From positions 66,987 through 130,986 of the forward strand of contig CABZFH010000004.1 of the NCBI GenBank assembly GCA_902524895.1: 64,000 nucleotides of DNA, in the 5' to 3' direction. The notes under the pieces are model-generated. The model had not been told where the DNA came from, did not search any database, and worked only from the letters and a program-made list of their open reading frames with translations. The stretch comes from an uncultured Alphaproteobacteria bacterium. Lineage in GTDB: Bacteria > Pseudomonadota > Alphaproteobacteria > Methylaequorales > Methylaequoraceae. Below, piece after piece: positions 11,655 through 42,481 of the stretch. Position numbers and translations under genes: made by a program. Within the stretch, counting starts at the first letter, position 1. Every line of letters starts with the position of its first letter.

Positions 11655-12545
11655 TCAATAAAATACTTCAAGATCCTCTTTACGTGATAGTGATTTTATA
11701 TCTCTATCGTTCAATAATTTCAAATTACCTGATGTTTTTTCTGGATCTTTAAAACGAAAATGATGATTCCAACAATAAATTTTTTTCCCTTGCTTTCTTG
11801 CAAACTCTATAGTTTTCATGGAACCACCATTTATTTTTGATTCAATTAATATAATACTTTCGCTGATACCACTTTGAAGTCTATTCCTTTCAATAAAGAA
11901 TGCCTTATTCGGTTTACTTTCCAAAGTATACTCAGTAATCAAACAACCATTTTTATTTAAAATCTGATTTGCTAATTCTTGATTTGCTTTTGGATAAATA
12001 TTTTTTAAACCAGAAGGTAGTATGCTTATAGTTGTTCCCTTTTCTAAAGAACCTTTATGAGCATTTTCATCACATCCAAGAGCTAATCCACTAACAATAG
12101 TTACTCCGTTAGACGCTAATTTTTCACTCACCTTGTATGAAATATCCTTTGCGTAATCACTTGAATCTCTAGCACCAATTATAGCAATTTTTTTTTTTGA
12201 TTTTAAAAGAGGTAAATTTCCCATTGAAAATAACAGTGTTGGTGGATTATTTATTATTCTAAACTCATTCGGGTACTGATCATCATAATAATTGATAATT
12301 TTAACCCCCATTTGTTGGCATTTATCAATCTCTCTATTTGCAGCGTCATATGCAATATCAAAACTGGTTTTCGAAATTTCAGGAAGTTTAATTTTTTGTT
12401 TAGATATAACATTAAATGACTTAAAAAACTCCTCTGAAGACTCAAAATCTTTATTTAAATATTTAGAAATCGTAAGAGCTTTAACATTTCCAATTTTTGG
12501 TAATCCCTTTAATGATAAAAGTGTAGTTGTGCTAGGCTTAAACAA
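11655..12545 (-). CDS. DprA/Smf-like (SLOG-fold) protein
   Basis: Rossmann core IAIIGARDSSDYAKDISYKVSEKLASNGVTIVSGLALGCDENAHKGSL matches the DprA signature GxR..S.yG...SGlAxGiDxxAH. Confidence 0.75.
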   Translation of the reverse strand: MFKPSTTTLLSLKGLPKIGNVKALTISKYLNKDFESSEEFFKSFNVISKQKIKLPEISKTSFDIAYDAANREIDKCQQMGVKIINYYDDQYPNEFRIINNPPTLLFSMGNLPLLKSKKKIAIIGARDSSDYAKDISYKVSEKLASNGVTIVSGLALGCDENAHKGSLEKGTTISILPSGLKNIYPKANQELANQILNKNGCLITEYTLESKPNKAFFIERNRLQSGISESIILIESKINGGSMKTIEFARKQGKKIYCWNHHFRFKDPEKTSGNLKLLNDRDIKSLSRKEDLEVFY

Positions 12546-13482
12546 AGGATACAGTTCTTCCTAGGGCTAAACAAATTACTCGATGTGCACCATTTTCAAT
12601 GAGTTTTTTTTTACAAGCCTGAATTGAAGTACCAGAAGTTATTATGTCATCAAGAAGAAGAATAATTTTTCCTTTGATTACATCTAACCATCTTGAGTTT
12701 ATAGATACTGATTTATACTCAATATTTGCATCTCTAACACCACCAGTGGACTTCTTTTCTAGTGAAATAATTCTTTTGATCACGCTCAAATTAGTATCAC
12801 TTTCATAGACCCATTTTTTATCTGCACTTTCATAAAATGATATTACTGCACTCCCATTAGCTATATTAAAATTATCCTCTGATGATAGATTTTTTGCAAT
12901 AATATCAATCGCATTTGCGTTATCCTGTGTAGAAGAAGGTACGGTTGTAATAATAAATTTTCCATTTTGATTTATTAAACCCGTGAGAATGTTAGTAAAG
13001 TATTCAATAGCTTTAATTTTCCTATCTTTAATAGCCAATAATTTTTTTGAAAATTCTATGTCATCTGCGTTAGTTGCGAATTGTAATTTCCTAGTTGGAA
13101 TATATTTACCTATATAAAAAATATTTTTATTGTAGGGATCATCTATATTTTCCTTTAAACTACCATCAATTTCATGCAGCCTATCGGGAGCAAATCTAAA
13201 AACCTCATACCAACTATTTTTTGGGGATAATGTTTCAGTATTCTGTTTTTGTAAAAATCGAGATTCTTTAATTGAATTTACTGCGTGTATATATTGAACA
13301 AGCTTTTTTGATCTTCTATTTACCCAAGAAACACTTTTATTCTTTTTATTTAAAATATTATTTGTAAATCTTCTTGTAAATTCCTCTATTACACCCTCAA
13401 TTTCCTTTAAGCTATTACACCTTGCAGCAATTACCATTAATTCAGTAGCTTTTTTTTTGAAATAAATTTTTTTCAAATCCAT
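12538..13482 (-). CDS. ComF-type phosphoribosyltransferase-domain protein with an unassigned N-terminal ~190 aa
   Basis: PRPP loop ILLLDDIITSGTS, upstream TVPSS, and a C-terminal ALGRT. No ComFC-type Cys4 zinc finger is present. It overlaps the DprA-like gene by 8 nt. Confidence 0.7.
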   Translation of the reverse strand: MDLKKIYFKKKATELMVIAARCNSLKEIEGVIEEFTRRFTNNILNKKNKSVSWVNRRSKKLVQYIHAVNSIKESRFLQKQNTETLSPKNSWYEVFRFAPDRLHEIDGSLKENIDDPYNKNIFYIGKYIPTRKLQFATNADDIEFSKKLLAIKDRKIKAIEYFTNILTGLINQNGKFIITTVPSSTQDNANAIDIIAKNLSSEDNFNIANGSAVISFYESADKKWVYESDTNLSVIKRIISLEKKSTGGVRDANIEYKSVSINSRWLDVIKGKIILLLDDIITSGTSIQACKKKLIENGAHRVICLALGRTVSFV

Positions 13483-15011: not shown

Positions 15012-15317
15012 ATGTGGATTCAGTTTAACAATGCATTCTTATCAATAGTAGAAAATAGAGATAATGAACTAGAGTTATTAGTTAGAGCTCGTATTAAAGG
15101 TGACATTGAGAAAATTTTTCCTGAAGCTCATGTATTTGAAGATGATAGTGCAGATTATAAATACAGAGCATTTATTTCAAAGGCTAAGGTTGCGGCTAGA
15201 ATGATGCTTAAGATAACAGAGATTAACTATGATAATTTTAAAAATTCTGTAAAAGAGATTACAAGAAAAAATGCGTATAGCAATATTTGGGTAGAATTAA
15301 GGAAACTTCAAAAATAA
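15012..15317 (+). CDS. Hypothetical protein
   Basis: ORF of 101 aa with no recognised motif. Confidence 0.4.
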   Translation: MWIQFNNAFLSIVENRDNELELLVRARIKGDIEKIFPEAHVFEDDSADYKYRAFISKAKVAARMMLKITEINYDNFKNSVKEITRKNAYSNIWVELRKLQK

Positions 15318-15323
15318 ATTAAC

Positions 15324-16616
15324 TCAAAGTTTTGATATCTCATCATATATTGTATTTCTAACTTTGTTTATCTCATCTTTATTTTTAATAAACTTTTTTG
15401 CAACATCTAAAATTTTATTAGCTGCAGATTCTCTTTTTTTTGATCTAACGTTATTAATCTCAACTACCTTTTCTTGATTTCTAACTTGTGATCTTTGTCT
15501 ACAAATTTCGGAAATATGCTTAGTGATTAATGAGATATGATTAACAAAATTATAGTAAAAGTTATTTTTTTCAAAATCATCTCGTCTACCATTGGGGACA
15601 AGCTTTGAACTTATTATATGAAGCTCACCAATGGTCCAAGCATTGAATCTTGACTCTTGAAACTGATCTAAAAAAATTGTGTTTTCACCGATTTGAATAT
15701 TTCCAACCCGCGCTCTTAATCCAGGAAGTGCAGTACTTTTATTTATGGCACCAAAATATCCATGATTTAACAAAAAGCCATAGGCTAAAAGTTCATTATC
15801 ATTATCCACTATCTCCAACTTTTCGACACCATTAATATAATCAGTAGTTGTTGAATTAAAGTCATATGAATTTCTAAATGTTCTAGTTATCGCTGTTTCA
15901 CCATTAAGTAAAATATTATGATACGAAATTTTAATTTTTTCTCTCAGAAGTTCATTTATTTGATCTTTAAATTTAAAGCTATCTGAAAAAGGAACAGGAG
16001 CAACTTGAGATAGATACTTCTCGATCATCATATTGTTAAGAAGTACATCATTTTTTAATCTGAGTATTTTCTTCAACTCAACCTTAAAATAATGAGCACT
16101 TGTATCACTTGTTTCTTGTAGTTCATGAGTTGTTGAATCATCAACTATTTTTTTTAAATCTGATTTAATTGAATGATCAACCAATAATTTTTTTAATTGT
16201 CGACAATCCCACTTCAAAGTATTTATTTTATTTTCTCCAGCGCATTTACTTGTAAACACTAACTCCTGACAATAAGCTAATCCTGCTAAACGTCCAATAC
16301 CTCTAAACCCTCTAGCATCTGTACCTCTTTTAGGACTGTTTCCAAAAGAAAGAAGTATTTTTGCAAACTCATTACTTGATAGGCCAGTGCCGTTGTCTTC
16401 GATAATAATTGATCTATCTATGTAATTAATATTGATTTTTATTTTACCGTCATCTTCTATTGATTTTAATAACCCTTTACTAACAGCTTTTTCTATTGAA
16501 TCAGCAGAGTTTTGTATATACTCGCGATAAATTGTCAAAGGGTCTAAATACATTCCTGAAGTAAGTAACTCAAGGATGTCTTTACCTATTGTTATTTGTT
16601 TTAAACTACTATTCAT
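15324..16616 (-). CDS. GHKL-superfamily ATPase (HATPase_c_3 / MORC-Hsp90-MutL-like)
   Basis: Bergerat-fold motifs: N box EYIQNSADS, G1 IEDNGTGLS, G2 GFRGIGRLAG. Confidence 0.75.
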   Translation of the reverse strand: MNSSLKQITIGKDILELLTSGMYLDPLTIYREYIQNSADSIEKAVSKGLLKSIEDDGKIKININYIDRSIIIEDNGTGLSSNEFAKILLSFGNSPKRGTDARGFRGIGRLAGLAYCQELVFTSKCAGENKINTLKWDCRQLKKLLVDHSIKSDLKKIVDDSTTHELQETSDTSAHYFKVELKKILRLKNDVLLNNMMIEKYLSQVAPVPFSDSFKFKDQINELLREKIKISYHNILLNGETAITRTFRNSYDFNSTTTDYINGVEKLEIVDNDNELLAYGFLLNHGYFGAINKSTALPGLRARVGNIQIGENTIFLDQFQESRFNAWTIGELHIISSKLVPNGRRDDFEKNNFYYNFVNHISLITKHISEICRQRSQVRNQEKVVEINNVRSKKRESAANKILDVAKKFIKNKDEINKVRNTIYDEISKL

Positions 16617-16621
16617 GATAA

Positions 16622-18235
16622 CTATCTGGCTATAACTTTTCTCATATTTTCTTCAATTTCAGTATCAGGATTATGGTCCAATCCAGCGTCCTCTACTATT
16701 TCATCATCAGCCATAGCAATATTTAGCTTATTTTTTATTTGTTTTTGGGAAGACCAAATTTTTCTGTTTTCTTCTATTGTCAAACGTTTATAAAAAGGAA
16801 TCATATTTCTAATCTTATTATTTTTAATTTTTTTTGATTCTTTCAAATACTCTGAAGGGAAATGTGATGCTAAAAAATTCATTAGTTCTTCAACCTCCGA
16901 TTCATATAGTTTGTTAATTTGTGTATTAAACTCATCTAGTTCAGCTCGACCACCGAATTTCTCAAACCAATCTCTATTAAAAGTAAAATCATGTGGCATT
17001 CTTAGAATTTTTAGAAATTCGTCTTCAGTATCACCAAATGCTTTTTTAAAAAATTCAGGTGCACCACTGACAACTCCGTGAGTTGCTTGGAGAATAATTT
17101 GAATTGAGCGCAAATAATATTTATTCCAATGCTCACCAACATGCCCCCTATCTGGCCTATCTGTTGGTTGATACCTCATTGGAAAAGAATAAATTTGGGT
17201 ACCAAGCTCTTCATTAAGACTGACATTTATTCTCATTCTTTGAAAAAGGTCATTTGGTGTATCATGGAAATTATACAGCATGTAATTTGATAAAAAATTC
17301 AAACCTGAAGCGCTTGCATACCGAACAGCTTGCTCATAGGGTTTTATTAAACCTACATGGTCAAAAGCAATCCTGAGAGGTGATAAACATACTCTACTTA
17401 ACTGTTTCATAAAATGCTCTGATTTTGCTAAAATTCTGGCATCTACACCCTGATTAAAATCAACACGTCTTTGAACTTTTTTACCTGTTCTAGGGTTGAC
17501 CATAGTTGCCCCTTTTGCAAAACCTAAATCGACAACTTCATCAATTATCTCTTTTAATCGAGGAGAAGCCACAACATTATTATCCATTAAAATTAAATCT
17601 TTTTTTGGACCATATAGTTTTTCAATTCCACCAACTATTTTGCTAAGCGGTGGCATTTCGCGCATTCCACCCTCAAGTTTTGGTACTCCACAAAAAGCAC
17701 ATTTTCTAACACACCCTCTTGTTGCGTAAGCGAAATAAGCGTCATGAACGGGATATTTATACTCAATTTGTCCAAGAATACTATAATCTGGTATTAGGTC
17801 CTCAATGGGGGTGCTATCTAAATCTTCGGAATATAGCTCCTCTTCGAAATCATCAAGTTGTAACGATTCTGCTGGAGATTTATCAAGTAAGCCTTGAATG
17901 AAACGAATTCCTCTCCATTTATCTTGAGACAAAAACTTCTCATGCATAAGTGAAGCAGCTATTCCACCTACAAAAATCTTATCGTGTTGTTGACTAACTA
18001 GCTTGGAAGCATATTCAATTGTTTCTGAAATTTTATTCCATTCAAAAGAAAACAATGTTGTAATATAAATTCTATCCCAAACAATTCTTTCCGCACTTTT
18101 ATCTTCACCTTTAATAAATTTAACATTATCTTTTTTACCATTAGCTCCATGGTATTGAGCTATTTTCATTAAACCCAAAGGGGGATATTTGTTTTTGTAT
18201 CCAGGTTCTATCAATAATATGTTTTTATTTGCCAT
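16622..18235 (-). CDS. Radical SAM enzyme with an N-terminal B12-binding-type domain
   Basis: LLIEPGYKNKYPPLGLMKIAQY and IFVGGIAAS suggest a cobalamin-binding-like domain. ATRGCVRKCAFCGV is the CxxxCxxC cluster motif. Confidence 0.75.
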   Translation of the reverse strand: MANKNILLIEPGYKNKYPPLGLMKIAQYHGANGKKDNVKFIKGEDKSAERIVWDRIYITTLFSFEWNKISETIEYASKLVSQQHDKIFVGGIAASLMHEKFLSQDKWRGIRFIQGLLDKSPAESLQLDDFEEELYSEDLDSTPIEDLIPDYSILGQIEYKYPVHDAYFAYATRGCVRKCAFCGVPKLEGGMREMPPLSKIVGGIEKLYGPKKDLILMDNNVVASPRLKEIIDEVVDLGFAKGATMVNPRTGKKVQRRVDFNQGVDARILAKSEHFMKQLSRVCLSPLRIAFDHVGLIKPYEQAVRYASASGLNFLSNYMLYNFHDTPNDLFQRMRINVSLNEELGTQIYSFPMRYQPTDRPDRGHVGEHWNKYYLRSIQIILQATHGVVSGAPEFFKKAFGDTEDEFLKILRMPHDFTFNRDWFEKFGGRAELDEFNTQINKLYESEVEELMNFLASHFPSEYLKESKKIKNNKIRNMIPFYKRLTIEENRKIWSSQKQIKNKLNIAMADDEIVEDAGLDHNPDTEIEENMRKVIAR

Positions 18236-18288
18236 ACCTATATATAGTATCAGAAAACTCTATTAAATACAAAATGTAGGAAAAAATT

Positions 18289-19326
18289 TTAATATTTTTT
18301 GTCTAGAGTTTTTGCTCTTTTTTCAAGAATTTTAGCTAGAGTTTTTAGTTCATATTTAATAGCGTCTTTTATCTTTTTATTTTCATTAGTTGTTTTGGCT
18401 TTTAATAGATCGAATAATTTAGAATCTAAATTTGGGTCATCCCTAAAATTCTGATTTATCTCTTTTAAAGCCGCAACTACACCTGTAGAGGATGGATGAG
18501 ACCTCCATTCGTTTCTTGATTTATGAAAATCTCCATGACTACAAAATTTTTTCAATATTTTTACAGCGTTAGCACCTGCAATTTTAGAAAAATGATTTCT
18601 CCAGACGGTAGAAGAAAAAACACCTTCTTCATCAGCTTTTTGTATTGATGCAATAAAATTTTCATAAAAATTTTTTTTATCTACAGTTTGTGCTTTAAAT
18701 ATATCGTTCAGGTCTCTGGATTTTACTAGCCATGAAATGATACTATATTTATTTTCATCTAATCTATTTTTATTAATTACTTCAATAGTCTCCTTCATTT
18801 CATCAATGTTTTTAGTAGTTAACTTAAATTTATCGTGTATCTCATCTTTAGAAAATTGATTTAATAATGATACAATTTTAAGAGCTTTATTATAGGCTTG
18901 CCATTCGTCTTTACCTTGAACATGAATAAAGTACAAAAACTGTTCTAGCTCTATTTCTGTATAGTCTGATATAACAAGTACATCAATTTTAGGCCAATGT
19001 GGAAGACTCGAATCGTTGTCAATATCTTTTAACCAATGATGGGCGGCTAGCCTTTGATTTCCCTCTATAGCAAGAAATTCATCTGTATATTCAATTTTTT
19101 TGACAACTATAGGTTCAAACATTTGCTTGGCTGTAAGGAGGTCTTCTTTCAGGTCTTTTACTTTTTTTTTTCCTCCTCCATAAAGAAAATGATTCTTGAT
19201 ATCAGAGTGACCCCACTCGGGGTTATGCTGTTTAATATTTAAAATTCTTGGGTTATCAGGGTCAAATTTTATATTATTAAAATCTATACCCTCTTTAGAC
19301 TCTGCCTTAATAAATTCTTTTCTCAT
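18289..19326 (-). CDS. ParB/sulfiredoxin-fold N-terminal domain protein (paralog A)
   Basis: IKFDPDNPRI and LAIEGNQRLAA resemble ParB box motifs. The central ~130 aa are highly similar to the 672-aa paralog. Confidence 0.65.
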   Translation of the reverse strand: MRKEFIKAESKEGIDFNNIKFDPDNPRILNIKQHNPEWGHSDIKNHFLYGGGKKKVKDLKEDLLTAKQMFEPIVVKKIEYTDEFLAIEGNQRLAAHHWLKDIDNDSSLPHWPKIDVLVISDYTEIELEQFLYFIHVQGKDEWQAYNKALKIVSLLNQFSKDEIHDKFKLTTKNIDEMKETIEVINKNRLDENKYSIISWLVKSRDLNDIFKAQTVDKKNFYENFIASIQKADEEGVFSSTVWRNHFSKIAGANAVKILKKFCSHGDFHKSRNEWRSHPSSTGVVAALKEINQNFRDDPNLDSKLFDLLKAKTTNENKKIKDAIKYELKTLAKILEKRAKTLDKKY

Positions 19327-19330
19327 AAAA

Positions 19331-20779
19331 TTAAAGTTTTAAAATTTCTTTTATAATTGAACTAAAATTATACTTAATTTTTCTTTTAAACTCAAATTCG
19401 TCTATGTCACCGATTAAAAGCTTTGCAGACCAATACTTAGCATTTACTAAACTGTCTATCCATTCATCTATAGAATTTTTCATTATTAAGTTATAGATAA
19501 AACAGTCTTTATTTTGAGAGATTCTATGAATTCTATCTTGTGCTTGAAGGTAATCGTCCAAACTTAAAGTTCTATCATAAAAAATACAGTGATTAGCCAC
19601 TGTTAATGTTAAACCCTCCTTAGATGATTGAGGAGTAGCAATTATAATTTTTAAATCATCGTTATTCTTGAATTTTTCAATAGAGCTGTTTCGCTGTTCT
19701 ATAGTTTGTCTACCATGAAGCTCTAGTGGTTTATATTGGCTTAGCACTTTAAACAACCAATAAATGTTCTTAAGATAGGCTGACCAAATAATAAGTTTTT
19801 CTCCGTTAGCTATAATTTTATTTATTATTTTCAAAAGTGATTTAAATTTTCCAGGCTTATTATTATAACTATCATCAATTAAAAAAGGGTTACTAGTTAT
19901 TTGAATCAATCTTATAATTCTTTTAAGAATTGGCTCAGCGTCTTCTTCAACTTTTTTTCCAGATTTTTGGATAAAGATTCTAAATTCCTCTTTTAATTCT
20001 AAATATTTTAAATGTTGATTGTGTTCCCAGTCTGTTTGAACATTTATAAAGTGTTTTTTTGGCAACTTGACTCCACTTTTTTCTTTGGTCTCCCTGACTG
20101 TAAAGTGGCTTATTTTTTCAAAAATTAAAGTTAGGTTATTAGAAAATCTAAGTTGTGCATTTTGGTCATTTTGAAGCTTATTATTTAAATCAAATTTTTT
20201 TTTAAATGACTCAAAATCGTAACCAAGAGCTCTACCATCATCTAAAAATTTAATCTGTGACCAAATATCATAAGGCCTGTTTGCAGAGGGAGTTCCTGTC
20301 ATAATACATTTTTTTTTAAAAGAATTTGATATTTCTAAAAAATTTTGAGTCAATTTACTTAATGGATTTTTTATTTTTGCAGACTCATCTAATATAATTC
20401 CAACTTCATTGTTCAAAGCCAGCTTTTCAATTCTTGGTCTTTCAAGATTAATAACCTCAAAATTTGCTAATAAAAAATTAACATTAGCAAAAAAAAGATC
20501 AGAATTATTTTCAATATTCTGTGATAAAATCCCATAGCTTAAATGACTGTGTTTAGCAATTTCATCTGTCCAATTTTTTATTAAACCTTTTTTAGTAAAA
20601 ACAATGACTTTTGATAAAATTTGATTTTTTAACCAATATAAAATTAAATCAATGGCAATCTTAGACTTACCTAAACCTTGTTCTAAAAAAATAGCACAAT
20701 ACTCAAGGTCTTTAAGTTTTTCATAAGACCTGGATTGTACATCAAGTGCAGTTGAGATACTTTTAAAATAATTTTTCAT
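19331..20779 (-). CDS. SNF2-family helicase/translocase
   Basis: Motif I GLGKSKIAI, motif II ILDESAKIKN, motif III MTGTPSANRPYDIWSQIKFL, motif VI QAQDRIHRISQ. Confidence 0.8.
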   Translation of the reverse strand: MKNYFKSISTALDVQSRSYEKLKDLEYCAIFLEQGLGKSKIAIDLILYWLKNQILSKVIVFTKKGLIKNWTDEIAKHSHLSYGILSQNIENNSDLFFANVNFLLANFEVINLERPRIEKLALNNEVGIILDESAKIKNPLSKLTQNFLEISNSFKKKCIMTGTPSANRPYDIWSQIKFLDDGRALGYDFESFKKKFDLNNKLQNDQNAQLRFSNNLTLIFEKISHFTVRETKEKSGVKLPKKHFINVQTDWEHNQHLKYLELKEEFRIFIQKSGKKVEEDAEPILKRIIRLIQITSNPFLIDDSYNNKPGKFKSLLKIINKIIANGEKLIIWSAYLKNIYWLFKVLSQYKPLELHGRQTIEQRNSSIEKFKNNDDLKIIIATPQSSKEGLTLTVANHCIFYDRTLSLDDYLQAQDRIHRISQNKDCFIYNLIMKNSIDEWIDSLVNAKYWSAKLLIGDIDEFEFKRKIKYNFSSIIKEILKL

Positions 20780-21213
20780 TCTTTTATCGATTTTGAAATG
20801 ACTAAGATATCCTTAAATTCATTTATACTTTTTAAGTAACTAAAAACTCCCAAATACGAAATGCAGGGTACAGCTAAAACAAACAATGAATTTAATTTTT
20901 TTAATTGGGGTTTATTCAGAAAATCTAAGTATGTTCTTATTTGTGTATCTGCTTTATGTTTTAAAGCAACATCTCCATAATTTTTTCTCTCATAAAGCTC
21001 TGAAAATGTTTTTGCTTCCCCTATAATTAAAAAATTTAGACTATATGAAAAAGCGGCAAAATCAGGAAGCTTTGAGCCACCAGGTTGTGGTAAGTTGGCT
21101 AACCATGAGCGATCAGAGGCAGTTTGAATAAAATCATTTGAAGTTTGCAAATATTTTTTCCTGAACCATAACTGAATGTAATCAGTTAGCATGTGATGTA
21201 ATTTTGATGTCAC
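20776..21213 (-). CDS. Hypothetical protein, possible PD-(D/E)xK nuclease fold
   Basis: LPDFAAF followed 15 residues later by IIGEAKT fits D...ExK spacing. Both neighbours overlap it by 4 nt. The call is weak. Confidence 0.35.
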   Translation of the reverse strand: MTSKLHHMLTDYIQLWFRKKYLQTSNDFIQTASDRSWLANLPQPGGSKLPDFAAFSYSLNFLIIGEAKTFSELYERKNYGDVALKHKADTQIRTYLDFLNKPQLKKLNSLFVLAVPCISYLGVFSYLKSINEFKDILVISKSIKE

Positions 21214-22325
21214 TCTTCATGTATATGAGAATCAACAGCACTAGTAAGTGCCTCAAGTTCTCCTGATATTTCTTTAATTAAAAGTTGTATTTCGTGAAAA
21301 TCATTAGATTGAGCTCTTAAAGTATCCTCATCATAATAAGGTTGTAAAGCAGCTGCAAAAGCTTGCAATTCTTCGAGTAATTTTCTTTTTATAGAAGGAG
21401 ATTTATCTTTATCTTGTTTTCTTTCATTAATAAATTCTTGAATTAGTGGAGTAGCATCTTTTTGAAACTGCTTGGATAGAAACCTTTTTCTATAACTTGG
21501 TTTTTCAAACATTCTTGCTAACGGAGCTACTTGTCTAGCGTTTACCAACTTACCTGTTCTAACAGCCTTTGCAAATTCAATATCATCAAATTCTGGCTCA
21601 AATTTTGACTTATATTTGTTATATTCTTCAAAAAAAGCAAATAATTGTGGAGTGAAAGGTTTAGGTCCTTCAATGCATTCTTCGTGGTTTTGGTCAAAAA
21701 ACTTTTTTACTCTTTCCATATGATTAAATGCATTAATCCTTAATTCTAAACTCCCTCTTGCAGCACTACTTCCGCATTTAGCAAGTATTTGTTCATATTG
21801 AACAGAATCTTTTTTTTTTATGTACGCTAATTTTTTTGCCCTTGAATATGGGGGCCATTCCTTAACACCGACAATATGAGCAATCGCCATAACATCCTCA
21901 AAATCATCTTCATTCTCTAAGACACAGCAGATAATTTTATTTGTCCATGGCTCAGGGTTATTCTGTGAATTTAAATCTTTGTAAATCGCAAGCCTTGTAT
22001 TACCCTCAGATACGATATATTTATATTCACCTTCAGGTTTGGGTAATTCTAAAGCATGTATTGGATTAATAATACCTTTCTTAGCTTTTATAGAGGCTTG
22101 CAATTGGGCAAAATCTGAAGTAGATGATTGCATTTTGTCAGCGTCAATCATAAAAGATAAAAGTAGTTGACATTTATCTTGAGGAATTTCATTTTCATCA
22201 TCTGGACTAATAAATATGGGAGAACTTGTAGCACTTGTTTCAAGACTTTGTCCAAAAAAGCGAGGATTCTTAGGATTGAACTTTATTTCTTTTATTGGAA
22301 TATTTTTAACTTCTTTAATTGCCAT
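21210..22325 (-). CDS. ParB/sulfiredoxin-fold N-terminal domain protein (paralog B)
   Basis: IPIKEIKFNPKNPRFF and IVSEGNTRLAIY. Confidence 0.65.
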   Translation of the reverse strand: MAIKEVKNIPIKEIKFNPKNPRFFGQSLETSATSSPIFISPDDENEIPQDKCQLLLSFMIDADKMQSSTSDFAQLQASIKAKKGIINPIHALELPKPEGEYKYIVSEGNTRLAIYKDLNSQNNPEPWTNKIICCVLENEDDFEDVMAIAHIVGVKEWPPYSRAKKLAYIKKKDSVQYEQILAKCGSSAARGSLELRINAFNHMERVKKFFDQNHEECIEGPKPFTPQLFAFFEEYNKYKSKFEPEFDDIEFAKAVRTGKLVNARQVAPLARMFEKPSYRKRFLSKQFQKDATPLIQEFINERKQDKDKSPSIKRKLLEELQAFAAALQPYYDEDTLRAQSNDFHEIQLLIKEISGELEALTSAVDSHIHEE

Positions 22326-22335
22326 TTTTTAATTA

Positions 22336-24354
22336 TTACATAAAATTCACTCCATTGGTAATATTATTCTTGAAAACTTTTTTTCTCCCACTAACGTAAT
22401 GAAATAGTTTCATACCGTCTAGTCTTTCTGTTCTACCTACACCTCTTTTAAAAAAAAATCTCTCTTCTGGTTTAATTTTTTTTTCTTTAGCTGTTTTGGA
22501 CTCGTTATATTTTTTATAATAAATTTCAATACCATCAAAATTAGTTTGACAGTCTATTATACAAATTTTTTTATTGCTAATATGTCTGAAAATTTTTAAG
22601 TCCCATGAATTAGAATGTTCTGAACCCATAGTATCATTCAATAAATTATCGATTACTCTGAGATACTTATCATCGTCTTCATAATCATCTTCTTCAATAC
22701 CAATTATTTTTTTATCATCTGTTACTCCAATTAATACGGTCCCTCCTTTGGTGTTTAATAATGAATTCACAGCTTTTAAAGTACTAAATCTTATTACGGG
22801 GTCTTTAGGATTATTTGTCTTTAAATCTTTACTAAATGTTGATTTTAATTCTACAACTGCTGATTCATGATTATCTATCATCGCATCAATTCTGGCAGAT
22901 TCTTCTTGTCTTAATTTTGACGAATCATCTTTATCTATCGTGGTGTCATTAAAAATTTCTAGTCGTTCAAGAATAAAAGCAGCATCTTTTTCTTTAAACT
23001 TTTGTAAAGCTCCCATATTAAAACAGAGTTCTTTAATTACATTTAAATCATGAAGCTCCGAAAACTTTCCCTGTCTTAGATAAAAACTAAACGGTTGTTT
23101 ACATTTTTTTAAAAAACAAAACTCATGCTCTTTTGATAGGTTTTCGTAATTATAAAAAAAATCAAAAAATTCATCTTTAAGTTTATAAATAAAGTCATTA
23201 ATTTCTGATTCGTTAAGTAAATTTTTCTTAAACTTTTCTATTGTAGTATTTTCAAAACTTTTGATCTTCAAACATTTATCGTCAATCTCTAATGTTTTTG
23301 TAAAATGCATAAAACTTTCATATGCTTTTAATTTAATTACACTTGCATTCTTAGCTTCCTCATCAAATTCTTCCGCTATTTTATCTAATTCCTCATCTCG
23401 TTCTTTTGAAGTTTTTCCCTTAAACTCCCTGTCTAAACAAACTGCTTCCTCCCAGGGACTATTAAATTGCATTTGTAGTCTTTTTCTATAGGGAATAAAA
23501 TCATTCTTCTCATTTAATGAATCTAATAAAAGTTCTTTTTTTGATTTTTCAAGATCCCCATGAACACAGAATTGTTTTAAGACAGACAAATTATTTTTTT
23601 TTGCAAGAGCAGCAAAGTGATTTCTCCAAAGAATAGAAGAAAAATCGCCCTCTTCATCACCTTTTTGTATTGATGCAATAAATTTTTCATAAAAAATTTT
23701 TTTATTCACAGTTTGTGCCGTAAATATATCATTCAGGTCTCTAGATTTTACTAGCCATGAAATTATAGAAAACTTATTTTCATCTAGTTTATAATCATTC
23801 ATTAAATCAACAATTTGCTTGATCTGATTAATTTTCTCTGGAGTTACTTTAAATTTTTTACTCACCTTATCTATGCTGAACTTGTTTAGGAATGACACAA
23901 TGTTCAAGGCTTTTTCATAGGAAGACCAATGACTGGGAAATAAAGCTTTATTTGGAAGGCCTTCTTGGAATTTCTTTGATAATTCTTCATCAATAATTAA
24001 GCAAGGAATTCTGATAAAATGTGTGGGAAATTTTTTTTTATTTTCTAGATATCTTTTTTTAAGTTTTAATAAACTAACATATCTCCTAGCACCCTCAATA
24101 ATAAGGTATGAAGGAACAATTTCATGATTTGACCCAATAACATTAAAATCTGATAGTATAACTTTCAAAGGCTCAAAAATACCTTCATTTTCAATACTAT
24201 CCATTAAATGTTTTAATTGATTAGAATCTGATAGAATATCTATTGCTTCTTTTTGTGATGATGGAACTTTACTTGCAAATCGTGCGGAATTTAAATCAAT
24301 TTTTAATTGAAACGCATTTAGTTGCTTGTATTGAGTTTTTGAATTAAGTGTCAT
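22336..24354 (-). CDS. ParB-like domain protein (paralog C) fused to a C-terminal AlbA_2/Schlafen-type domain
   Basis: The N-terminus has YLIIEGARRYVSL. The central module is shared with paralog A. The C-terminus ESAVVELKSTF...NTKGGTVLIGVTDDKKIIGIE matches the AlbA_2 pattern E.K....GG.l.iGv.d.g.i.Gi. Confidence 0.65.
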   Translation of the reverse strand: MTLNSKTQYKQLNAFQLKIDLNSARFASKVPSSQKEAIDILSDSNQLKHLMDSIENEGIFEPLKVILSDFNVIGSNHEIVPSYLIIEGARRYVSLLKLKKRYLENKKKFPTHFIRIPCLIIDEELSKKFQEGLPNKALFPSHWSSYEKALNIVSFLNKFSIDKVSKKFKVTPEKINQIKQIVDLMNDYKLDENKFSIISWLVKSRDLNDIFTAQTVNKKIFYEKFIASIQKGDEEGDFSSILWRNHFAALAKKNNLSVLKQFCVHGDLEKSKKELLLDSLNEKNDFIPYRKRLQMQFNSPWEEAVCLDREFKGKTSKERDEELDKIAEEFDEEAKNASVIKLKAYESFMHFTKTLEIDDKCLKIKSFENTTIEKFKKNLLNESEINDFIYKLKDEFFDFFYNYENLSKEHEFCFLKKCKQPFSFYLRQGKFSELHDLNVIKELCFNMGALQKFKEKDAAFILERLEIFNDTTIDKDDSSKLRQEESARIDAMIDNHESAVVELKSTFSKDLKTNNPKDPVIRFSTLKAVNSLLNTKGGTVLIGVTDDKKIIGIEEDDYEDDDKYLRVIDNLLNDTMGSEHSNSWDLKIFRHISNKKICIIDCQTNFDGIEIYYKKYNESKTAKEKKIKPEERFFFKRGVGRTERLDGMKLFHYVSGRKKVFKNNITNGVNFM

Positions 24355-24395: not shown

Positions 24396-24890
24396 ATGAA
24401 AAAATTCTTATACAAACTTGAAGATATTTCAAAAAAAGTATTTAAACAACTATCAGGACTTAAAGAAGAAGATTTTCAAACCGCTCTTGGTATTGAATTT
24501 AGAAAAAATAAAATTGACTTTATGCGTGAAGCTGGACTTGAAGTCTTCTACGATAATCATCCAATTAGTCTTCATGAACTCGACTTTCTAGTTCCTCCCT
24601 GTATGGATTTAAAAGAACCCATCATCATTGAAACAAAAGTTAATTCGGCCATAGCAGAAGATCATCGTCAACAATTGAGGAATTACCTTCGTTCAGCCGC
24701 AAAAAATGATAATGCTATCATTAAAAAAATTAAAACAGGATTAATACTTAACTTTAAAAAGAATGAAGTTTTTACCGAAAGTGTTCGTCAACGCAAAGAA
24801 ACTCAAGATATTGAGATTGAGGTATGGACATATGAAAAAAACAAGTTTACTCAACAATTCTCTAATAAAAAGATCGAAGAAAAATCCTAA
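24396..24890 (+). CDS. GxxExxY-family protein (PD-(D/E)xK nuclease superfamily)
   Basis: GLKEEDF (a GxxExxF variant), followed by LDFLV and IIIETK (D...ExK). Confidence 0.55.
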   Translation: MKKFLYKLEDISKKVFKQLSGLKEEDFQTALGIEFRKNKIDFMREAGLEVFYDNHPISLHELDFLVPPCMDLKEPIIIETKVNSAIAEDHRQQLRNYLRSAAKNDNAIIKKIKTGLILNFKKNEVFTESVRQRKETQDIEIEVWTYEKNKFTQQFSNKKIEEKS

Positions 24891-25021
24891 AATTTTTTTT
24901 TGGCCATTATGTTATACACTATAAGCCCTTACCCTACCTGCAAAAAATTAAAAAATTGATTTCAGAAAACTAATAGATTATTAATTTATCTAACAGTTTT
25001 AACTTTTATTACGAGTTATAG

Positions 25022-25300
25022 ATGAAGAATTTAAAGGGTACTGATTTCCAGAAAATGGTTTGGAATGAGATAAAAAAAATTCCCAAGGGGAAAATAATTA
25101 CATACAAAGAACTTGCTATAAAGATAGGTAAGCCGAAAGCGTATCGTGCTGTTGCTAGTGCGTGTGCTAAGAATCCGTTATTAGAAATTATTCCTTGTCA
25201 TAGAGTTATAAGAAGTGACGGTAAAATGGGTAATTATATGGGTGATAAAGGAATAGAAAGAAAGAAAAAACTACTTGAAAAAGAAGGTATAAAATTTTAG
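25022..25300 (+). CDS. Methylated-DNA-protein-cysteine methyltransferase-family protein (C-terminal DNA-binding/acceptor domain only, 92 aa)
   Basis: Active-site motif IIPCHRVIRSDG, preceded by the helix-turn-helix region TYKELAIKIGKPKAYRAVASA. Confidence 0.8.
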   Translation: MKNLKGTDFQKMVWNEIKKIPKGKIITYKELAIKIGKPKAYRAVASACAKNPLLEIIPCHRVIRSDGKMGNYMGDKGIERKKKLLEKEGIKF

Positions 25301-28146: not shown

Positions 28147-28464
28147 AAAACTATCTTGTAAATAATAATTAAAATTATTTTAATCTCCTAATCTTTATTT
28201 ATTTTTCAGAAAAGTTTTATTTCATTTAAGCTCTCAATAACAAATTTTTATATGATATAGAATAACTTGTGTTACCCATCCACTTTTTTGACTTTTTATA
28301 AATTTTTGCAAATTCTGAGACTTCCTTAGATGAAGACATGCATTTGTCAAAAAATATTATAAACCATAAAAAGGTTGTTGCTCGACATTTTCATACTAGA
28401 AAATAAAGAGGTGGAGATTGTCTACCCTAAATAAACACAAGTATTAGAATATTCACTATTTTTA

Positions 28465-32681: not shown

Positions 32682-32695
32682 AATAGTATTTAGAT

Positions 32696-37885: not shown

Positions 37886-37954
37886 AACATTTCAATAGTA
37901 TTACAAATCTTTATTAATTCAATCTTTTTAAATTAAAAGAAAATACATCAAAAA

Positions 37955-38392: not shown

Positions 38393-38398
38393 TATTAA

Positions 38399-40756: not shown

Positions 40757-40762
40757 GAAAAA

Positions 40763-42478: not shown

Positions 42479-42481
42479 AAA

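What the first reader, a model, noticed from the sequence alone, without database searches (positions are those of the whole stretch)
15324..24354. Seven-gene coupled operon (3 ParB/Srx-like proteins, SNF2 helicase, PD-(D/E)xK-like protein, B12-domain radical SAM, GHKL ATPase): candidate undescribed DNA-modification/defence system
All seven ORFs lie on the minus strand. Their junctions are +10, -4, -4, +4, +53 and +5 nt, so they read as one ~9-kb transcription unit with translational coupling. Motifs I can read directly: three paralogous ParB/sulfiredoxin-type N-termini (IKFDPDNPRI..IEGNQRL; IKFNPKNPRF..SEGNTRL; IIEGARRY). The 672-aa paralog ends in an AlbA_2/Schlafen-type module (ESAVVELKSTF..GGTVLIGVTDDKKIIGIE). 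There is a complete SNF2 motor (GLGKSKIAI, ILDESAKIKN, MTGTPSANRPYDIW, QAQDRIHRISQ). A 145-aa protein has D..ExK spacing (LPDF..IIGEAKT). A radical SAM enzyme has a cobalamin-domain-like N-terminus and a CVRKCAFC cluster. A GHKL/MORC-type ATPase has EYIQNSADS, IEDNGTGLS and GFRGIGRL. ParB-like proteins are accessory factors in DNA-modification systems (Dnd/Ssp phosphorothioation, Dpd 7-deazaguanine), and SNF2 and GHKL/MORC ATPases recur in restriction-type systems. Here, however, there is no DNA methyltransferase, TGT, cysteine desulfurase/PAPS-reductase, PLD or DUF1998 partner. The combination therefore matches none of the systems I know. My inference is that the B12-type radical SAM enzyme, helped by ParB-like NTPases, is the self-marking or nucleotide-modifying arm. 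The SNF2, GHKL and nuclease-like proteins would then be the sensing and effector arm. The location supports a conflict-system role: it sits inside a tRNA-anchored island, between a DprA/PRTase pair and a GxxExxY nuclease-like gene.
Basis: partly seen in the sequence, partly recalled or inferred. Interest (0 to 1): 0.9.

Follow-up and report, generated by a model that had tools for sequence, protein, structure and literature searches.

The report
Undescribed radical-SAM defence-like gene system
The seven-gene operon is real and is one variant of a widespread, mobile and apparently undescribed gene system, built around a radical SAM enzyme and an Hsp90-like ATPase with swappable helicase-nuclease modules, that most likely marks the host's own DNA and attacks foreign DNA.

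Summary
Seven minus-strand ORFs lie at exactly the stated coordinates, junctions and motifs.

The operon belongs to a conserved modular system found in at least 541 species representatives across about ten phyla, on conjugative plasmids and in prophage-like contigs.

- **Core.** A radical SAM enzyme (rSAM) is about 60% identical across phyla. An Hsp90-like GHKL ATPase follows it, usually overlapping by 4 nt. A DndB/DpdB-like protein usually precedes it.
- **Optional modules.** M2 is ParB-like x2-3 + a PD-ExK nuclease + SNF2. M3 is PIN + a second GHKL. A third option is a DndB-HEPN fusion. In 54 of 60 well-flanked loci at least one is present.
- **Window variant.** It carries core + M2 + a ParB-AlbA_2 protein and has no DndB-like gene.

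M2 is inherited as a block. It is swapped between nearly identical cores: rSAM is 93-95% identical but the ParB-likes only 16-32%. Where flanks allow a check, M2 sits next to the long rSAM, a short phage-type rSAM or, once, two DNA adenine methyltransferases.

No match was found in PADLOC, Pfam, NCBIfam or the searchable literature.

Best reading (confidence about 0.45): a modification-restriction-like defence in which the rSAM core marks DNA. No experiment exists.

The parts
16622..18235 (-). Core enzyme: a radical SAM protein (537 aa) with an N-terminal Rossmann/B12-like domain, a CVRKCAFC cluster motif and a helical C-terminal region of about 160 aa.
   Evidence: - Homologues: 7951 found, the best 120 at 60% identity or more.
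- Conservation: mean column identity 73%. The only invariant cysteines are C175, C179 and C182.
- Fold: AF2 model pLDDT 78. Foldseek hits are MiaB+RNA (E 7e-10), MtaB, TsrM, AprD4, TokK and RimO.
- Phage relatives: phrog_9298 at E 3e-42.
- Distribution: present in all 88 loci examined.
15324..16616 (-). Core partner: an Hsp90/HtpG-like GHKL ATPase (430 aa) with N-terminal ATPase and middle domains followed by long C-terminal helices.
   Evidence: - Pfam HATPase_c_3 at E 9e-13.
- A family profile hits HtpG at E 5e-11.
- AF2 model pLDDT 86.5. The top 50 Foldseek hits are all Hsp90/TRAP1/HtpG/GRP94 over about 420 columns.
- The N-box, G1 and G2 residues are invariant.
- It lies next to the rSAM in 87 of 88 loci, with a -4 nt overlap in 54 loci.
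- An rSAM-GHKL fusion protein exists, P0477.
18289..19326 (-). ParB/Srx-like protein (345 aa). It is the last gene of the M2 cassette and occupies the position just upstream of the rSAM.
   Evidence: - Invariant NPR, G-N-x-R, H and W across the family.
- The family profile hits Noc, ParB and sulfiredoxin.
- hhalign probability is 100% against the other ParB-like families of the system.
- It is only 16-29% identical to its counterparts in genomes whose rSAM is 93-95% identical.
19331..20779 (-). Compact SNF2-family ATPase/translocase (482 aa), part of the M2 cassette.
   Evidence: - Pfam SNF2-rel_dom (E 5e-21) and Helicase_C (E 8e-16), with motifs I, II and VI intact.
- Only generic hits to ZorD, DpdE, DrmD and BrxH in PADLOC.
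- Orthologues at 39% identity or more occur only on plasmids that also carry the rSAM, 7 of 7.
20776..21213 (-). Small PD-ExK nuclease-like protein (145 aa), part of the M2 cassette.
   Evidence: - Invariant P50-D51, E66-A67-K68 and Q91 in 38 orthologues. H6, D32 and D72 are nearly invariant.
- No Pfam, PADLOC or PDB sequence hit. The fold was not tested.
21210..22325 (-). ParB/Srx-like protein (371 aa), the first gene of the M2 cassette.
   Evidence: - Same family as the 345-aa protein.
- Evolves extremely fast. Only 3 clusters at 65% identity or more among 5.8 billion proteins.
22336..24354 (-). Lineage-specific accessory (672 aa): a ParB-like region fused to a C-terminal AlbA_2/Schlafen-type domain. 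It is a likely effector-bearing analogue of the DndB-HEPN protein of other variants.
   Evidence: - Residues 78-274 are 48% identical to residues 79-273 of the 345-aa protein.
- Pfam SLFN_AlbA_2 at E 2e-11, residues 497-612.
- A 296-aa ParB+AlbA_2 version occupies the same place in L008, and none does in L009.
15012..15317 (+). Conserved 101-aa ORF convergent on the operon end, 6 nt from the GHKL stop codon. Membership in the system is uncertain.
   Evidence: - 89% and 94% amino-acid identity in L008 and L009.
- It travels with the rSAM-GHKL segment and is absent from all other loci.
- No Pfam hit.

Best explanation
This is a mobile, modular, DNA-targeting defence system that works like the complex modification-restriction systems (Dnd, Dpd).

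**Shown by comparative genomics**
- The invariant core is a radical SAM enzyme co-translated with an Hsp90-like ATPase.
- In most variants a DndB/DpdB-like protein is coupled upstream.
- One to three optional nuclease-bearing modules hang on this core: M2 (two or three ParB-like proteins, a PD-ExK nuclease and an SNF2 translocase), M3 (a PIN nuclease with a second Hsp90-like ATPase), and a DndB-HEPN fusion.
- The window carries core + M2 + a ParB-AlbA_2/Schlafen fusion.

**Inferred**
1. A DndB-like or ParB-like protein brings the rSAM to DNA. The ATP-driven Hsp90-like dimer holds or activates it.
2. The rSAM uses a SAM-derived radical to place a covalent mark on a base or sugar of resident DNA.
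3. The ParB-like NTP-gated DNA binders and the SNF2 motor scan DNA and let the PD-ExK nuclease cut DNA that lacks the mark.
4. The RNase-type domains (PIN, HEPN, Schlafen-like) act as back-up, abortive-infection effectors.
5. M2 is the part exposed to the arms race. It is replaced wholesale by recombination while the chemistry of the mark stays fixed.
For: **1. The core is tightly linked.**
- rSAM and GHKL are adjacent in 87 of 88 loci, with a -4 nt overlap in 54 loci.
- The two families occur on exactly the same 12 plasmids out of 72,556.
- The pair persists, in reversed order, in a sister clade whose rSAM is 39-47% identical.
- rSAM-GHKL and DndB-rSAM fusion proteins exist.

**2. The usual upstream partner is a DndB-family protein.**
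- It scores above the Pfam cut-off and hits DpdB at E 1e-17.
- It overlaps the rSAM start by 8 nt in 21 loci.
- In PMC12839542, DndB is described as a regulator within the Dnd phosphorothioation system and DpdB as the ATPase that drives DpdA-mediated base insertion. Both are DNA-modification systems.

**3. Dependence runs one way.**
- M2 SNF2 orthologues and the M3 GHKL are never on a plasmid without the rSAM.
- Of 50 metagenomic M2 loci with 3 kb or more downstream, 45 carry the long rSAM.
- The core occurs without M2 in 25 of 60 well-flanked loci.
- This is the pattern of modification genes, which can stand alone, against restriction genes, which cannot.

**4. The exceptions substitute another candidate modification enzyme.**
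- Six loci carry a short phage-type rSAM directly upstream of M2.
- In L161, M2 is packed with 0-12 nt gaps behind a DpnM-like and a CcrM/DpnA-like DNA adenine methyltransferase.

**5. Partner modules process DNA.**
- M2 has SNF2 + PD-ExK. The sister clade has HerA (E 2e-55) + NurA.
- The rSAM homologue of Marinitoga camini virus 1 also sits next to HerA and a gene annotated as a single-stranded exonuclease associated with the Rad50/Mre11 complex.

**6. The rSAM fold is nearest to a nucleic-acid-modifying enzyme.**
- MiaB bound to RNA is the top hit.
- Distant phage homologues lie among DNA methyltransferases, QueD, PAPS reductase and MazG.

**7. Evolutionary rates fit a fixed mark with arms-race readers.**
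- Median pairwise identity is 0.64 for the rSAM, against 0.43-0.44 for the ParB-likes and 0.32 for the nuclease.
- M2 genes co-vary with each other (rho 0.90-0.93).
- M2 is swapped between cores that are 93-96% identical.

**8. The setting is mobile.**
- It occurs on conjugative plasmids and in IMG/VR contigs.
- Neighbours are integrases, transposases, relaxases, ArdC and scattered known defence genes. No neighbour is conserved.
Against: - Nothing shows that DNA is the rSAM substrate. There are no modification data and no phenotype.
- The closest structural relatives act on tRNA, protein or small molecules. AprD4, a sugar dehydratase, gives the best TM-score. That chemistry is closer to viperin.
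- Hsp90-family ATPases are known for protein clients, not DNA (my own knowledge). The paralogous GHKL+PIN pair suggests a 'regulator + toxic effector' logic, which would make the rSAM an effector.
- The rSAM has no variable region that could read a DNA sequence, so specificity would have to come from partners.
- The methyltransferase substitution is a single locus. Its downstream 287-aa ORF could not be identified.
- The two fusion proteins are single metagenomic representatives and could be assembly or frameshift artefacts.
- This window's variant lacks the DndB-like protein on which part of the argument rests.
- Defence-island enrichment was not tested against a background.
Confidence: 0.45

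Rival explanations
1. Sensor-effector (abortive infection or antiviral metabolite) system. The Hsp90-like ATPase senses an invader protein or nucleic acid and releases the rSAM as the effector. The rSAM then makes a viperin-like chain-terminating or signalling nucleotide, or damages nucleic acid by radical chemistry. M2, M3 and the HEPN/Schlafen fusions are additional effectors or sensors wired to the same core.
For: - Paralogous two-gene logic: GHKLb+PIN mirrors GHKLa+rSAM.
- The C-terminal ~130 aa of GHKLa are hypervariable between otherwise near-identical rhizobial loci. Identity is 25-55% there while the rSAM is 95-97% identical. That looks like a sensor surface.
- The rSAM is under unusually strong purifying selection, about 60% identity across phyla. 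This is expected for an enzyme acting on a universal small substrate.
- The best TM-score is to AprD4, a radical dehydratase.
- Core-only and core+DndB loci exist.
Against: - It does not explain why a DndB/DpdB-family protein is co-translated, and once fused, with the rSAM.
- It does not explain why M2 is found with DNA methyltransferases or a different rSAM in place of the core.
- It does not explain why the nuclease modules are strictly dependent on the core.
- The rSAM model's structural matches were MiaB, MtaB, TsrM, AprD4, TokK and RimO, not viperin. No PADLOC viperin model was hit.
Confidence: 0.27
2. A mobile-element DNA-marking or DNA-handling system that is not host defence. The rSAM core modifies the element's own DNA, for example to evade recipient restriction or to regulate transfer or replication. 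M2 (ParB-like proteins + SNF2 + nuclease) is a loading, spreading or processing machine that helps the modifying enzyme rather than a restriction module.
For: - Frequent carriage on conjugative plasmids, next to ArdC, relaxase and TraG genes.
- Phage homologues sit among protective DNA-modification genes.
- In L161, M2 sits behind two DNA adenine methyltransferases and before an unidentified 287-aa ORF. If that ORF is the DpnII-type endonuclease it resembles by eye, a second restriction activity in M2 would be redundant.
- ParB-family proteins are classical DNA loaders and spreaders (my own knowledge).
Against: - Active-site residues are conserved in the PD-ExK protein. PIN_8 matches Pfam at E 3e-25, and the HEPN R-x4-H motif is conserved. 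All point to nucleic-acid cleavage.
- Wholesale swapping of M2 between near-identical cores is typical of arms-race components.
- The system also sits in chromosomal islands of streamlined marine genomes, far from any transfer genes.
Confidence: 0.15
3. It is a diverged member of an already named system (Dpd, Dnd/Ssp, MADS, DISARM, BREX, Zorya, PD-Lambda-5 or Ophion). Alternatively, the rSAM is a housekeeping tRNA or protein-modifying enzyme that merely neighbours an unrelated helicase-nuclease cassette.
For: - Generic SNF2 hits to ZorD, DpdE, DrmD and BrxH.
- Weak N-terminal hits of the ParB-likes to PD-Lambda-5_A and PDC-M38A.
- The DndB-like partner hits DpdB.
- The fold resembles MiaB and RimO.
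Against: - None of the defining enzymes of those systems is present.
- The rSAM, GHKLa, the small nuclease and PIN have no PADLOC hit at all.
- No auxiliary-cluster cysteines for a methylthiotransferase.
- Distribution is sporadic and mobile, with strict rSAM-GHKL and M2-rSAM linkage. That excludes housekeeping function and chance adjacency.
Confidence: 0.05

Closest known systems
Dpd system (DpdA/B/C 7-deazaguanine DNA modification plus DpdD-K restriction)
   Same: - A DGQHR/DndB-family protein is directly coupled to the putative modifying enzyme (DpdB model hit at E 1e-17).
- It includes an SNF2-type helicase.
- It is a large multi-gene island-borne cluster with separable modification and restriction parts.
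   Different: - No TGT/DpdA, no DpdC and no preQ0 genes.
- The enzyme here is a radical SAM protein paired with an Hsp90-like ATPase, neither of which is part of Dpd.
- The window variant lacks even the DpdB-like gene.
Dnd / Ssp phosphorothioation systems
   Same: - A DndB-family protein is present (Pfam DndB above the cut-off in relatives).
- The modifying enzyme is an iron-sulfur enzyme.
- The modification module can stand alone, and alternative restriction modules are exchanged.
   Different: - No DndA/IscS, no DndC/SspD PAPS-reductase-fold enzyme, and no DndD/E or SspB/C.
- No sulfur-mobilising gene.
- The restriction modules are unrelated to DndFGH, SspE or Pbe.
Prokaryotic viperins (pVip) and Ophion, the radical SAM enzymes known in phage defence
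   Same: A radical SAM enzyme sits at the centre of a defence-type locus, and the enzyme is strongly conserved.
   Different: - The rSAM model's structural matches are two-domain enzymes (MiaB, TsrM, AprD4), not viperin.
- No PADLOC viperin hit.
- Ophion is rSAM+PHP+PRTase (bioRxiv 10.1101/2025.09.30.679545). None of those partners is conserved here.
MiaB/RimO methylthiotransferases and cobalamin-dependent class B radical SAM enzymes (TsrM, TokK), plus AprD4
   Same: - The domain plan is the same: an N-terminal Rossmann-like domain followed by a radical SAM barrel.
- They are the best structural matches (E 7e-10 to 9e-5).
   Different: - Only 12-16% identity and TM 0.38-0.54.
- No second cluster of cysteines.
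- The B12-binding Pfam model is not matched in the window protein, and only sub-threshold in a sister protein.
- The helical C-terminal extension is unique.
HerA-NurA and HerA-coupled defence systems (Sir2-HerA and similar)
   Same: The sister clade is a NurA-HerA-GHKL-rSAM operon. It shares the theme of a DNA translocase plus nuclease coupled to another enzyme.
   Different: The window uses SNF2 + PD-ExK instead of HerA + NurA. No described HerA system contains an rSAM or an Hsp90-like ATPase, as far as the searchable literature shows.
Hsp90/HtpG chaperones and sacsin-type Hsp90-like modules
   Same: - The fold of the N-terminal ATPase and middle domains matches.
- The ATP-binding motifs are intact.
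   Different: - Far below the HtpG equivalog cut-offs (48 against 455 bits).
- No canonical Hsp90 C-terminal domain was recognised.
- It is encoded only beside the rSAM or beside a PIN nuclease.

Membership tests
Dpd system | DpdA (TGT-family DNA transglycosylase) | tested here: not met
   No TGT domain in any of the seven proteins, and no DpdA hit in PADLOC.
Dpd system | DpdB (DGQHR ParB-like ATPase) next to the modifying enzyme | tested here: not met
   No window protein hits DpdB or DndB. Relatives do carry one, with DpdB at E 1e-17 and Pfam DndB above the cut-off.
Dnd / Ssp phosphorothioation | A cysteine desulfurase, a PAPS-reductase-fold DndC/SspD, and the DndD/SspC ATPase | tested here: not met
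   No such domains or PADLOC hits in the operon.
MADS | mad1-mad8 gene set including a DNA methyltransferase | tested here: not met
   PADLOC holds the mad models, since they hit unrelated neighbours of other loci. None hit the seven proteins.
DISARM / BREX / Zorya | DrmA/B/C (DUF1998, PLD), or PglZ/BrxC, or ZorA/B, together with the helicase | tested here: not met
   Only the SNF2 core gives generic DrmD, BrxH and ZorD hits. No other component was found.
Viperin-type antiviral radical SAM | A viperin-like radical SAM fold and a match to a PADLOC viperin model | tested here: not met
   The rSAM model's structural matches are the two-domain enzymes MiaB, MtaB, TsrM, AprD4, TokK and RimO, not viperin. 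There is no PADLOC hit.
Radical SAM superfamily | CxxxCxxC cluster motif in a partial TIM barrel | tested here: met
   C175, C179 and C182 are invariant. The barrel is predicted and matches solved radical SAM enzymes. The Pfam score is below the cut-off.
Cobalamin-dependent (class B) radical SAM | An N-terminal domain that actually binds cobalamin | tested here: inconclusive
   The fold resembles TsrM and TokK, but equally MiaB and the B12-independent AprD4. Pfam B12-binding is not hit in the window protein, and scores 25 against 32.1 bits in a sister protein.
MiaB/RimO methylthiotransferases | Three N-terminal cysteines for an auxiliary [4Fe-4S] cluster | tested here: not met
   No conserved cysteines outside the CxxxCxxC motif in the N-terminal domain. 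NCBIfam scores are 16-22 bits against cut-offs of 251-357.
Hsp90/HtpG family (GHKL) | Bergerat ATP-binding fold plus the Hsp90 middle domain | tested here: met
   The top 50 Foldseek hits are all Hsp90 family over about 420 columns. The profile hits HtpG at E 5e-11. It is not an HtpG equivalog (48 against 455 bits).
   The listed sequence and structure matches are all Hsp90, TRAP1, GRP94 or HtpG.
ParB/Srx superfamily | N-terminal domain with the GxxR phosphate-binding motif | tested here: met
   The profile hits Noc at 7e-4, ParB at 0.016 and sulfiredoxin at 0.02, aligning EGNxR with GERR. NPR and G-N-x-R are invariant. The evidence is weak to moderate. NTPase activity cannot be tested here.
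PD-(D/E)xK nucleases | PD...(D/E)xK catalytic motif on a restriction-endonuclease fold | tested here: inconclusive
   The motif is invariant: P50-D51 and E66-A67-K68. The fold was not modelled, and there is no profile or PDB hit.
SNF2 family ATPases | SNF2-related N lobe plus Helicase_C, with motifs I, II and VI | tested here: met
   Both Pfam domains score above the cut-off. The motifs are invariant across 29 orthologues.
Ophion | rSAM + PHP + PRTase three-gene set | tested here: not met
   There is no PHP gene. A PRTase-like gene lies 1.8 kb away (12538-13482). It is not at the corresponding place in the related genome L008, and no conserved neighbour of the system was found elsewhere.

The most novel reading that the evidence does not exclude
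The rSAM installs a previously unknown, radical-chemistry covalent mark on DNA, for example C-methylation or another C-H functionalisation of a base or sugar. It would be delivered by a DndB-like or ParB-like loader and gated by an Hsp90-family ATPase. The mark would be read by swappable ParB-SNF2-nuclease, PIN or HerA-NurA modules. If so, this would be the first radical-SAM-dependent self-marking immune system and the first Hsp90-family ATPase working in DNA transactions. It would be spread across about ten bacterial phyla, including streamlined marine alphaproteobacteria (SAR11-like by my reading of the 28% G+C and the marine single-cell relatives; taxonomy not tested).
Probability: 0.35. 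Interest if true: 0.92.

Novelty: new variant of a known kind. Interest (0 to 1): 0.8.

Why it matters
- **New chemistry for self-marking.** If the best reading holds, radical SAM chemistry joins methylation, phosphorothioation and 7-deazaguanine exchange as a way bacteria mark their own DNA. It could reveal a new natural DNA modification, with possible uses in epigenetic labelling and sequencing.
- **A new role for an Hsp90-type ATPase.** The ATPase would gain a role outside protein folding.
- **Wide reach.** The system is common: at least 541 species representatives, thousands of metagenomic proteins, and rhizobial and sphingomonad plasmids. It is absent from the defence catalogue I could query. 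Defence annotation of soil, plant-associated and marine genomes therefore probably misses it.
- **A natural experiment.** The near-invariant enzyme next to cassette-swapped reader modules shows which parts of an immune system face the arms race.
- **Directly testable.** Culturable, sequenced hosts carry the full system.

Tried and rejected
- **Known-system assignment.** PADLOC, NCBIfam, Pfam and PHROGs gave only generic SNF2 and weak ParB-like hits for the seven proteins. The same was true for orthologues of the missing components.
- **Literature.** The only trace is the ParB-HEPN fusion Saro_3948, listed in a table of PMC3710099. Ophion is a different rSAM system. The library lacks most subscription journals and DefenseFinder was not available, so a description elsewhere cannot be excluded.
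- **Methylthiotransferase reading.** Rejected, because there are no auxiliary-cluster cysteines.
- **MORC/MutL reading of the ATPase.** Rejected.
- **Homology between the ParB-like proteins and the DndB-like protein.** Not detectable by hhalign (probability 0.2%).
- **Promoter and terminator scan.** At chance level.
- **Metagenome scan with the ParB-like alignment.** The family is too divergent to give search patterns.
- **Homologue search with the 371-aa ParB-like protein.** Found only 3 clusters, so M2 independence had to be tested through the SNF2 gene instead.
- **The 287-aa ORF after M2 in L161.** Could not be identified.
- **BFVD fold search.** Added nothing beyond 'B12-binding-like / radical SAM' phage proteins.
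- **Net charge and pI of the proteins.** Uninformative about DNA binding.

Full report
**Observation**

All lie on the minus strand, with junctions of +10, -4, -4, +4, +53 and +5 nt. Every quoted motif is in the translations.

Pfam supports SNF2-rel_dom plus Helicase_C (482 aa), HATPase_c_3 (430 aa) and SLFN_AlbA_2 at the C-terminus of the 672-aa protein. All three score above their curated cut-offs. Radical_SAM in the 537-aa protein scores only below its cut-off.

PADLOC, NCBIfam and PHROGs add only generic SNF2 hits, weak N-terminal ParB-like hits (PD-Lambda-5_A, PDC-M38A, phrog_1033) and a phage radical SAM family, phrog_9298 at E 3e-42. PADLOC contains MADS, Dpd, Dnd, DISARM, BREX and Zorya models, and none is matched as a system.

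The host is a 25-30% G+C marine alphaproteobacterium. The closest loci come from single-cell genomes AG-908-P05 and AG-892-K07.

**The operon is one variant of a widespread system**

The rSAM has 7951 scored homologues. The best 120 are 60% identical or more, and a 26-sequence alignment has 73% mean column identity.

These span:
- Alpha- and Gammaproteobacteria
- Acidobacteriota
- Binatia
- Eremiobacterota
- Verrucomicrobiota
- Gemmatimonadota
- Latescibacterota
- Nitrospinota
- Armatimonadota

The system is also on 12 plasmids, 7 of them conjugative, and on nine IMG/VR contigs.

I called ORFs in 88 loci, built family HMMs and read the architectures. rSAM followed by the GHKL ATPase is universal (87 of 88). 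The stop and start codons overlap by 4 nt in 54 loci.

A roughly 345-aa DndB-family protein usually precedes the rSAM. It scores above the Pfam DndB cut-off and hits the DpdB model at E 1e-17. It overlaps the rSAM start by 8 nt in 21 loci.

Three optional modules occur:

| Module | Composition | Evidence |
|---|---|---|
| M2 | ParB-like, ~140-aa protein, SNF2, ParB-like; one sub-type has three ParB-likes before the small protein and SNF2 | |
| M3 | PIN_8 protein + a paralogous GHKL | |
| DndB-HEPN | ~780-aa DndB fusion with a conserved R-x4-H motif | |

Saro_3948 is listed as a ParB-HEPN fusion in PMC3710099. It is presumably the 769-aa DGQHR protein of pNL1, although I did not verify the locus-tag mapping.

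Among 60 loci with at least 7 kb on both sides, M2 is in 35, M3 in 23 and the HEPN fusion in 14. At least one is present in 54.

The window carries core + M2 with no DndB-like gene, like 12 other loci. It also has the 672-aa protein. This is a 48%-identical duplicate of the 345-aa ParB-like protein fused to AlbA_2/Schlafen. I read it as the counterpart of the DndB-HEPN fusion.

**What the parts are**

- **rSAM.** The AF2 model (pLDDT 78) is a two-domain enzyme: a Rossmann/B12-like N-domain followed by a radical SAM barrel and then a helical C-terminal region. The best matches are MiaB bound to RNA, MtaB, TsrM, AprD4, TokK and RimO. Only the three cluster cysteines are invariant, so it is not a methylthiotransferase. 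Cobalamin use is open.
- **ATPase.** It is Hsp90-like, not MORC-like. A family profile hits HtpG at E 5e-11. The AF2 model (pLDDT 86.5) aligns over about 420 columns with Hsp90, TRAP1, HtpG and GRP94 in all top 50 hits. The ATP-site residues are invariant.
- **ParB-like proteins.** They form one family (hhalign probability 100%) with invariant NPR and G-N-x-R. They have weak but consistent profile hits to Noc, ParB and sulfiredoxin.
- **Small protein.** It has invariant P-D and E-A-K.

**Linkage tests**

1. On plasmids, the GHKL families occur in exactly the 12 records that carry the rSAM. M2-type SNF2 orthologues (39% identity or more) occur in 7, all among those 12.
2. A sister clade (rSAM 39-47% identical) keeps the pair in reversed order in a four-gene operon, NurA-HerA-GHKL-rSAM. 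HerA hits at E 2e-55 and NurA at 0.016, both against the same PDB entry. The rSAM homologue of Marinitoga camini virus 1 also sits beside a gene annotated HerA and one annotated as a single-stranded exonuclease associated with the Rad50/Mre11 complex.
3. An exhaustive search of 1.84 billion cluster representatives found a compact family: 284 at E 1e-30 or better. It includes a DndB-rSAM fusion (P0423) and an rSAM-GHKL fusion (P0477). Both are single representatives, so I treat them as suggestive only.
4. I started from the M2 SNF2 gene in metagenomes. Of 50 loci with at least 3 kb downstream, 45 carry the long rSAM.
   - L163 and L166 carry a short (~410 aa) rSAM of the phage type directly upstream of M2, with no GHKL. 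Four more loci (L136, L168, L173, L184) encode a close homologue of that short rSAM.
   - In L161, M2 is packed with 0-12 nt gaps behind a DpnM-like methyltransferase (E 2e-58) and a CcrM/DpnA-like one (E 8e-59).
   - L181 and L198 have too little flank to judge.
   - So, wherever the flanks allow a check, M2 sits next to a proven or candidate nucleic-acid-modifying enzyme.

**Evolutionary pattern**

Across 36 complete loci, median pairwise identities are:

| Component | Median pairwise identity |
|---|---|
| rSAM | 0.64 |
| SNF2 | 0.55 |
| ParB-likes | 0.43-0.44 |
| GHKL | 0.41 |
| Small nuclease | 0.32 |

M2 genes co-vary with each other (rho 0.90-0.93) more than with the rSAM (0.63-0.70).

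In the two genomes closest to the window, the flanks are 72-91% identical at the nucleotide level. The rSAM is 93-95% identical in protein and the GHKL 89-96%. Yet SNF2 is 49-54% identical, the ParB-likes 16-32% and the small nuclease 18-21%. The same pattern is seen among rhizobial plasmids.

M2 is therefore exchanged as a cassette between near-identical cores.

In rhizobia, the C-terminal ~130 residues of the GHKL are also hypervariable.

**Setting**

The 134 immediate neighbours of 77 loci share no conserved family. The commonest are integrases, transposases, resolvases, relaxases, ArdC and TraG. A scatter of known defence genes also appears: PD-T7-1, NsnA, UzuA, SoFic, mad3/mad8, DndH, PD-T7-5 and Type II methyltransferases. 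I did not compare this with a background.

In the window, tRNA-Thr lies 4.2 kb from the operon end. The same tRNA borders the region in L008, but the cargo between it and the operon differs. That fits a variable island. No integrase or attachment-site repeat was found.

**Mechanism**

I commit to a modification-restriction-like model at about 0.45 confidence.

Shown:
- the core linkage
- the DndB-family coupling
- the one-way dependence of the nuclease modules on the core
- the substitution of the core by other modifying enzymes
- the DNA-processing nature of the partner modules
- the rate asymmetry between core and readers

Inferred:
- that the rSAM marks DNA
- that the Hsp90-like ATPase gates or clamps it
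- that ParB-likes + SNF2 + PD-ExK read and cut unmarked DNA
- that PIN, HEPN and Schlafen-like domains are back-up effectors

The main rival (about 0.27) is a sensor-effector system in which the rSAM is a viperin-like or damaging effector released by the ATPase. It draws on the GHKL+PIN paralogy, the hypervariable GHKL tail and the AprD4-like fold. It leaves the DndB coupling and the methyltransferase and short-rSAM substitutions unexplained.

A non-defence role in handling a mobile element's own DNA is less likely (about 0.15). A known system or chance adjacency is unlikely (about 0.05).

**Novelty and limits**

Nothing I could query describes a DndB-like / rSAM / Hsp90-like ATPase system.

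The logic resembles Dnd and Dpd, so I file it as a new variant of a known kind: complex modification-based defence. The two universal core proteins have no counterpart in any described defence or DNA-modification system that I could query. If the chemistry is confirmed, it would count as a new kind.

All evidence is computational. PADLOC is the 2023 release, DefenseFinder was unavailable, and the literature library omits most subscription journals.

Noticed in passing
window 11655-13482 (-): A DprA/SLOG-like gene (Pfam DNA_processg_A, E 2e-62) overlaps by 8 nt a 314-aa protein with a sub-threshold C-terminal PRTase hit (25.1 against 26.3 bits). The pair lies between tRNA-Thr and the operon and is not at the corresponding place in L008. 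It may be a separate two-gene conflict module; Ophion also uses a PRTase.
   Followed up: partly
window 15012-15317 (+): A 101-aa ORF convergent on the GHKL gene, 6 nt from its stop codon. It is 89-94% identical in protein in L008 and L009 and absent from all other loci. No domain hit. It may be a lineage-specific accessory or regulator.
   Followed up: partly
window 24396-25300 (+): A PDDEXK_3 ('GxxExxY') nuclease-fold gene starts 41 bp upstream of the operon and runs divergently. A 92-aa protein consisting only of the MGMT DNA-binding domain (alkyltransferase-like) follows. Both are syntenic in L008 and L009. Their link to the system is unknown.
   Followed up: no
window 27433-29445 (-): A staphylococcal-nuclease-domain protein, followed by a 326-aa RecQ C-terminal fragment (end of Helicase_C, Zn-binding, RQC, HRDC) that lacks the helicase N lobe. 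The fragment is either truncated or a stand-alone RQC/HRDC protein.
   Followed up: no
L100-L106 (IMG/VR contigs), e.g. L102 4761-11097: A sister four-gene operon, NurA-like / HerA / Hsp90-like GHKL / rSAM (~620 aa with insertions). It occurs in lower-G+C organisms and keeps the rSAM-GHKL pair in reversed order.
   Followed up: partly
L163 7352-13116; L166 7007-12845; homologues of the short rSAM also in L136, L168, L173, L184: A GHKL-less architecture: a short phage-type rSAM (~410 aa, RGCFRKCPFC) directly upstream of ParB / PD-ExK / SNF2 / ParB, followed by a conserved ~225-aa protein of unknown function.
   Followed up: partly
L161 999-7443: The M2 cassette is embedded, with 0-12 nt gaps, between two DNA adenine methyltransferases (DpnM-like and CcrM/DpnA-like) and a 287-aa ORF. 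The ORF looks DpnII-endonuclease-like by eye but could not be verified.
   Followed up: partly
P0336, P0342, P0356, P0358, P0364 (804-824 aa): rSAM homologues (about 48-50% identical) with a ~370-aa helical, repeat-like C-terminal extension of unknown function. A further ~685-aa class also exists.
   Followed up: no
L007, L021, L023, L025 (rhizobial loci), GHKLa C-terminus: The last ~130 residues of the core ATPase are only 25-55% identical between loci whose rSAM is 95-97% identical. In L007 against L021, M2 is also 92-97% identical. The tail is a hypervariable surface.
   Followed up: partly
L089 (Bacteroides phage LoVEphage) and L107-L120: Distant phage rSAM homologues (21-29% identical) sit in replication/modification regions. 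Their neighbours include five or six DNA methyltransferases, QueD/PTPS, PAPS reductase, MazG and DUF5131.
   Followed up: partly
window 29748-44641: A large RTX/FecR-domain protein with two type I secretion sets (ABC, HlyD, C39 peptidase), a CHASE2 adenylate/guanylate cyclase and a cNMP-binding HlyD protein. This is typical variable-region cargo, unrelated to the finding.
   Followed up: no
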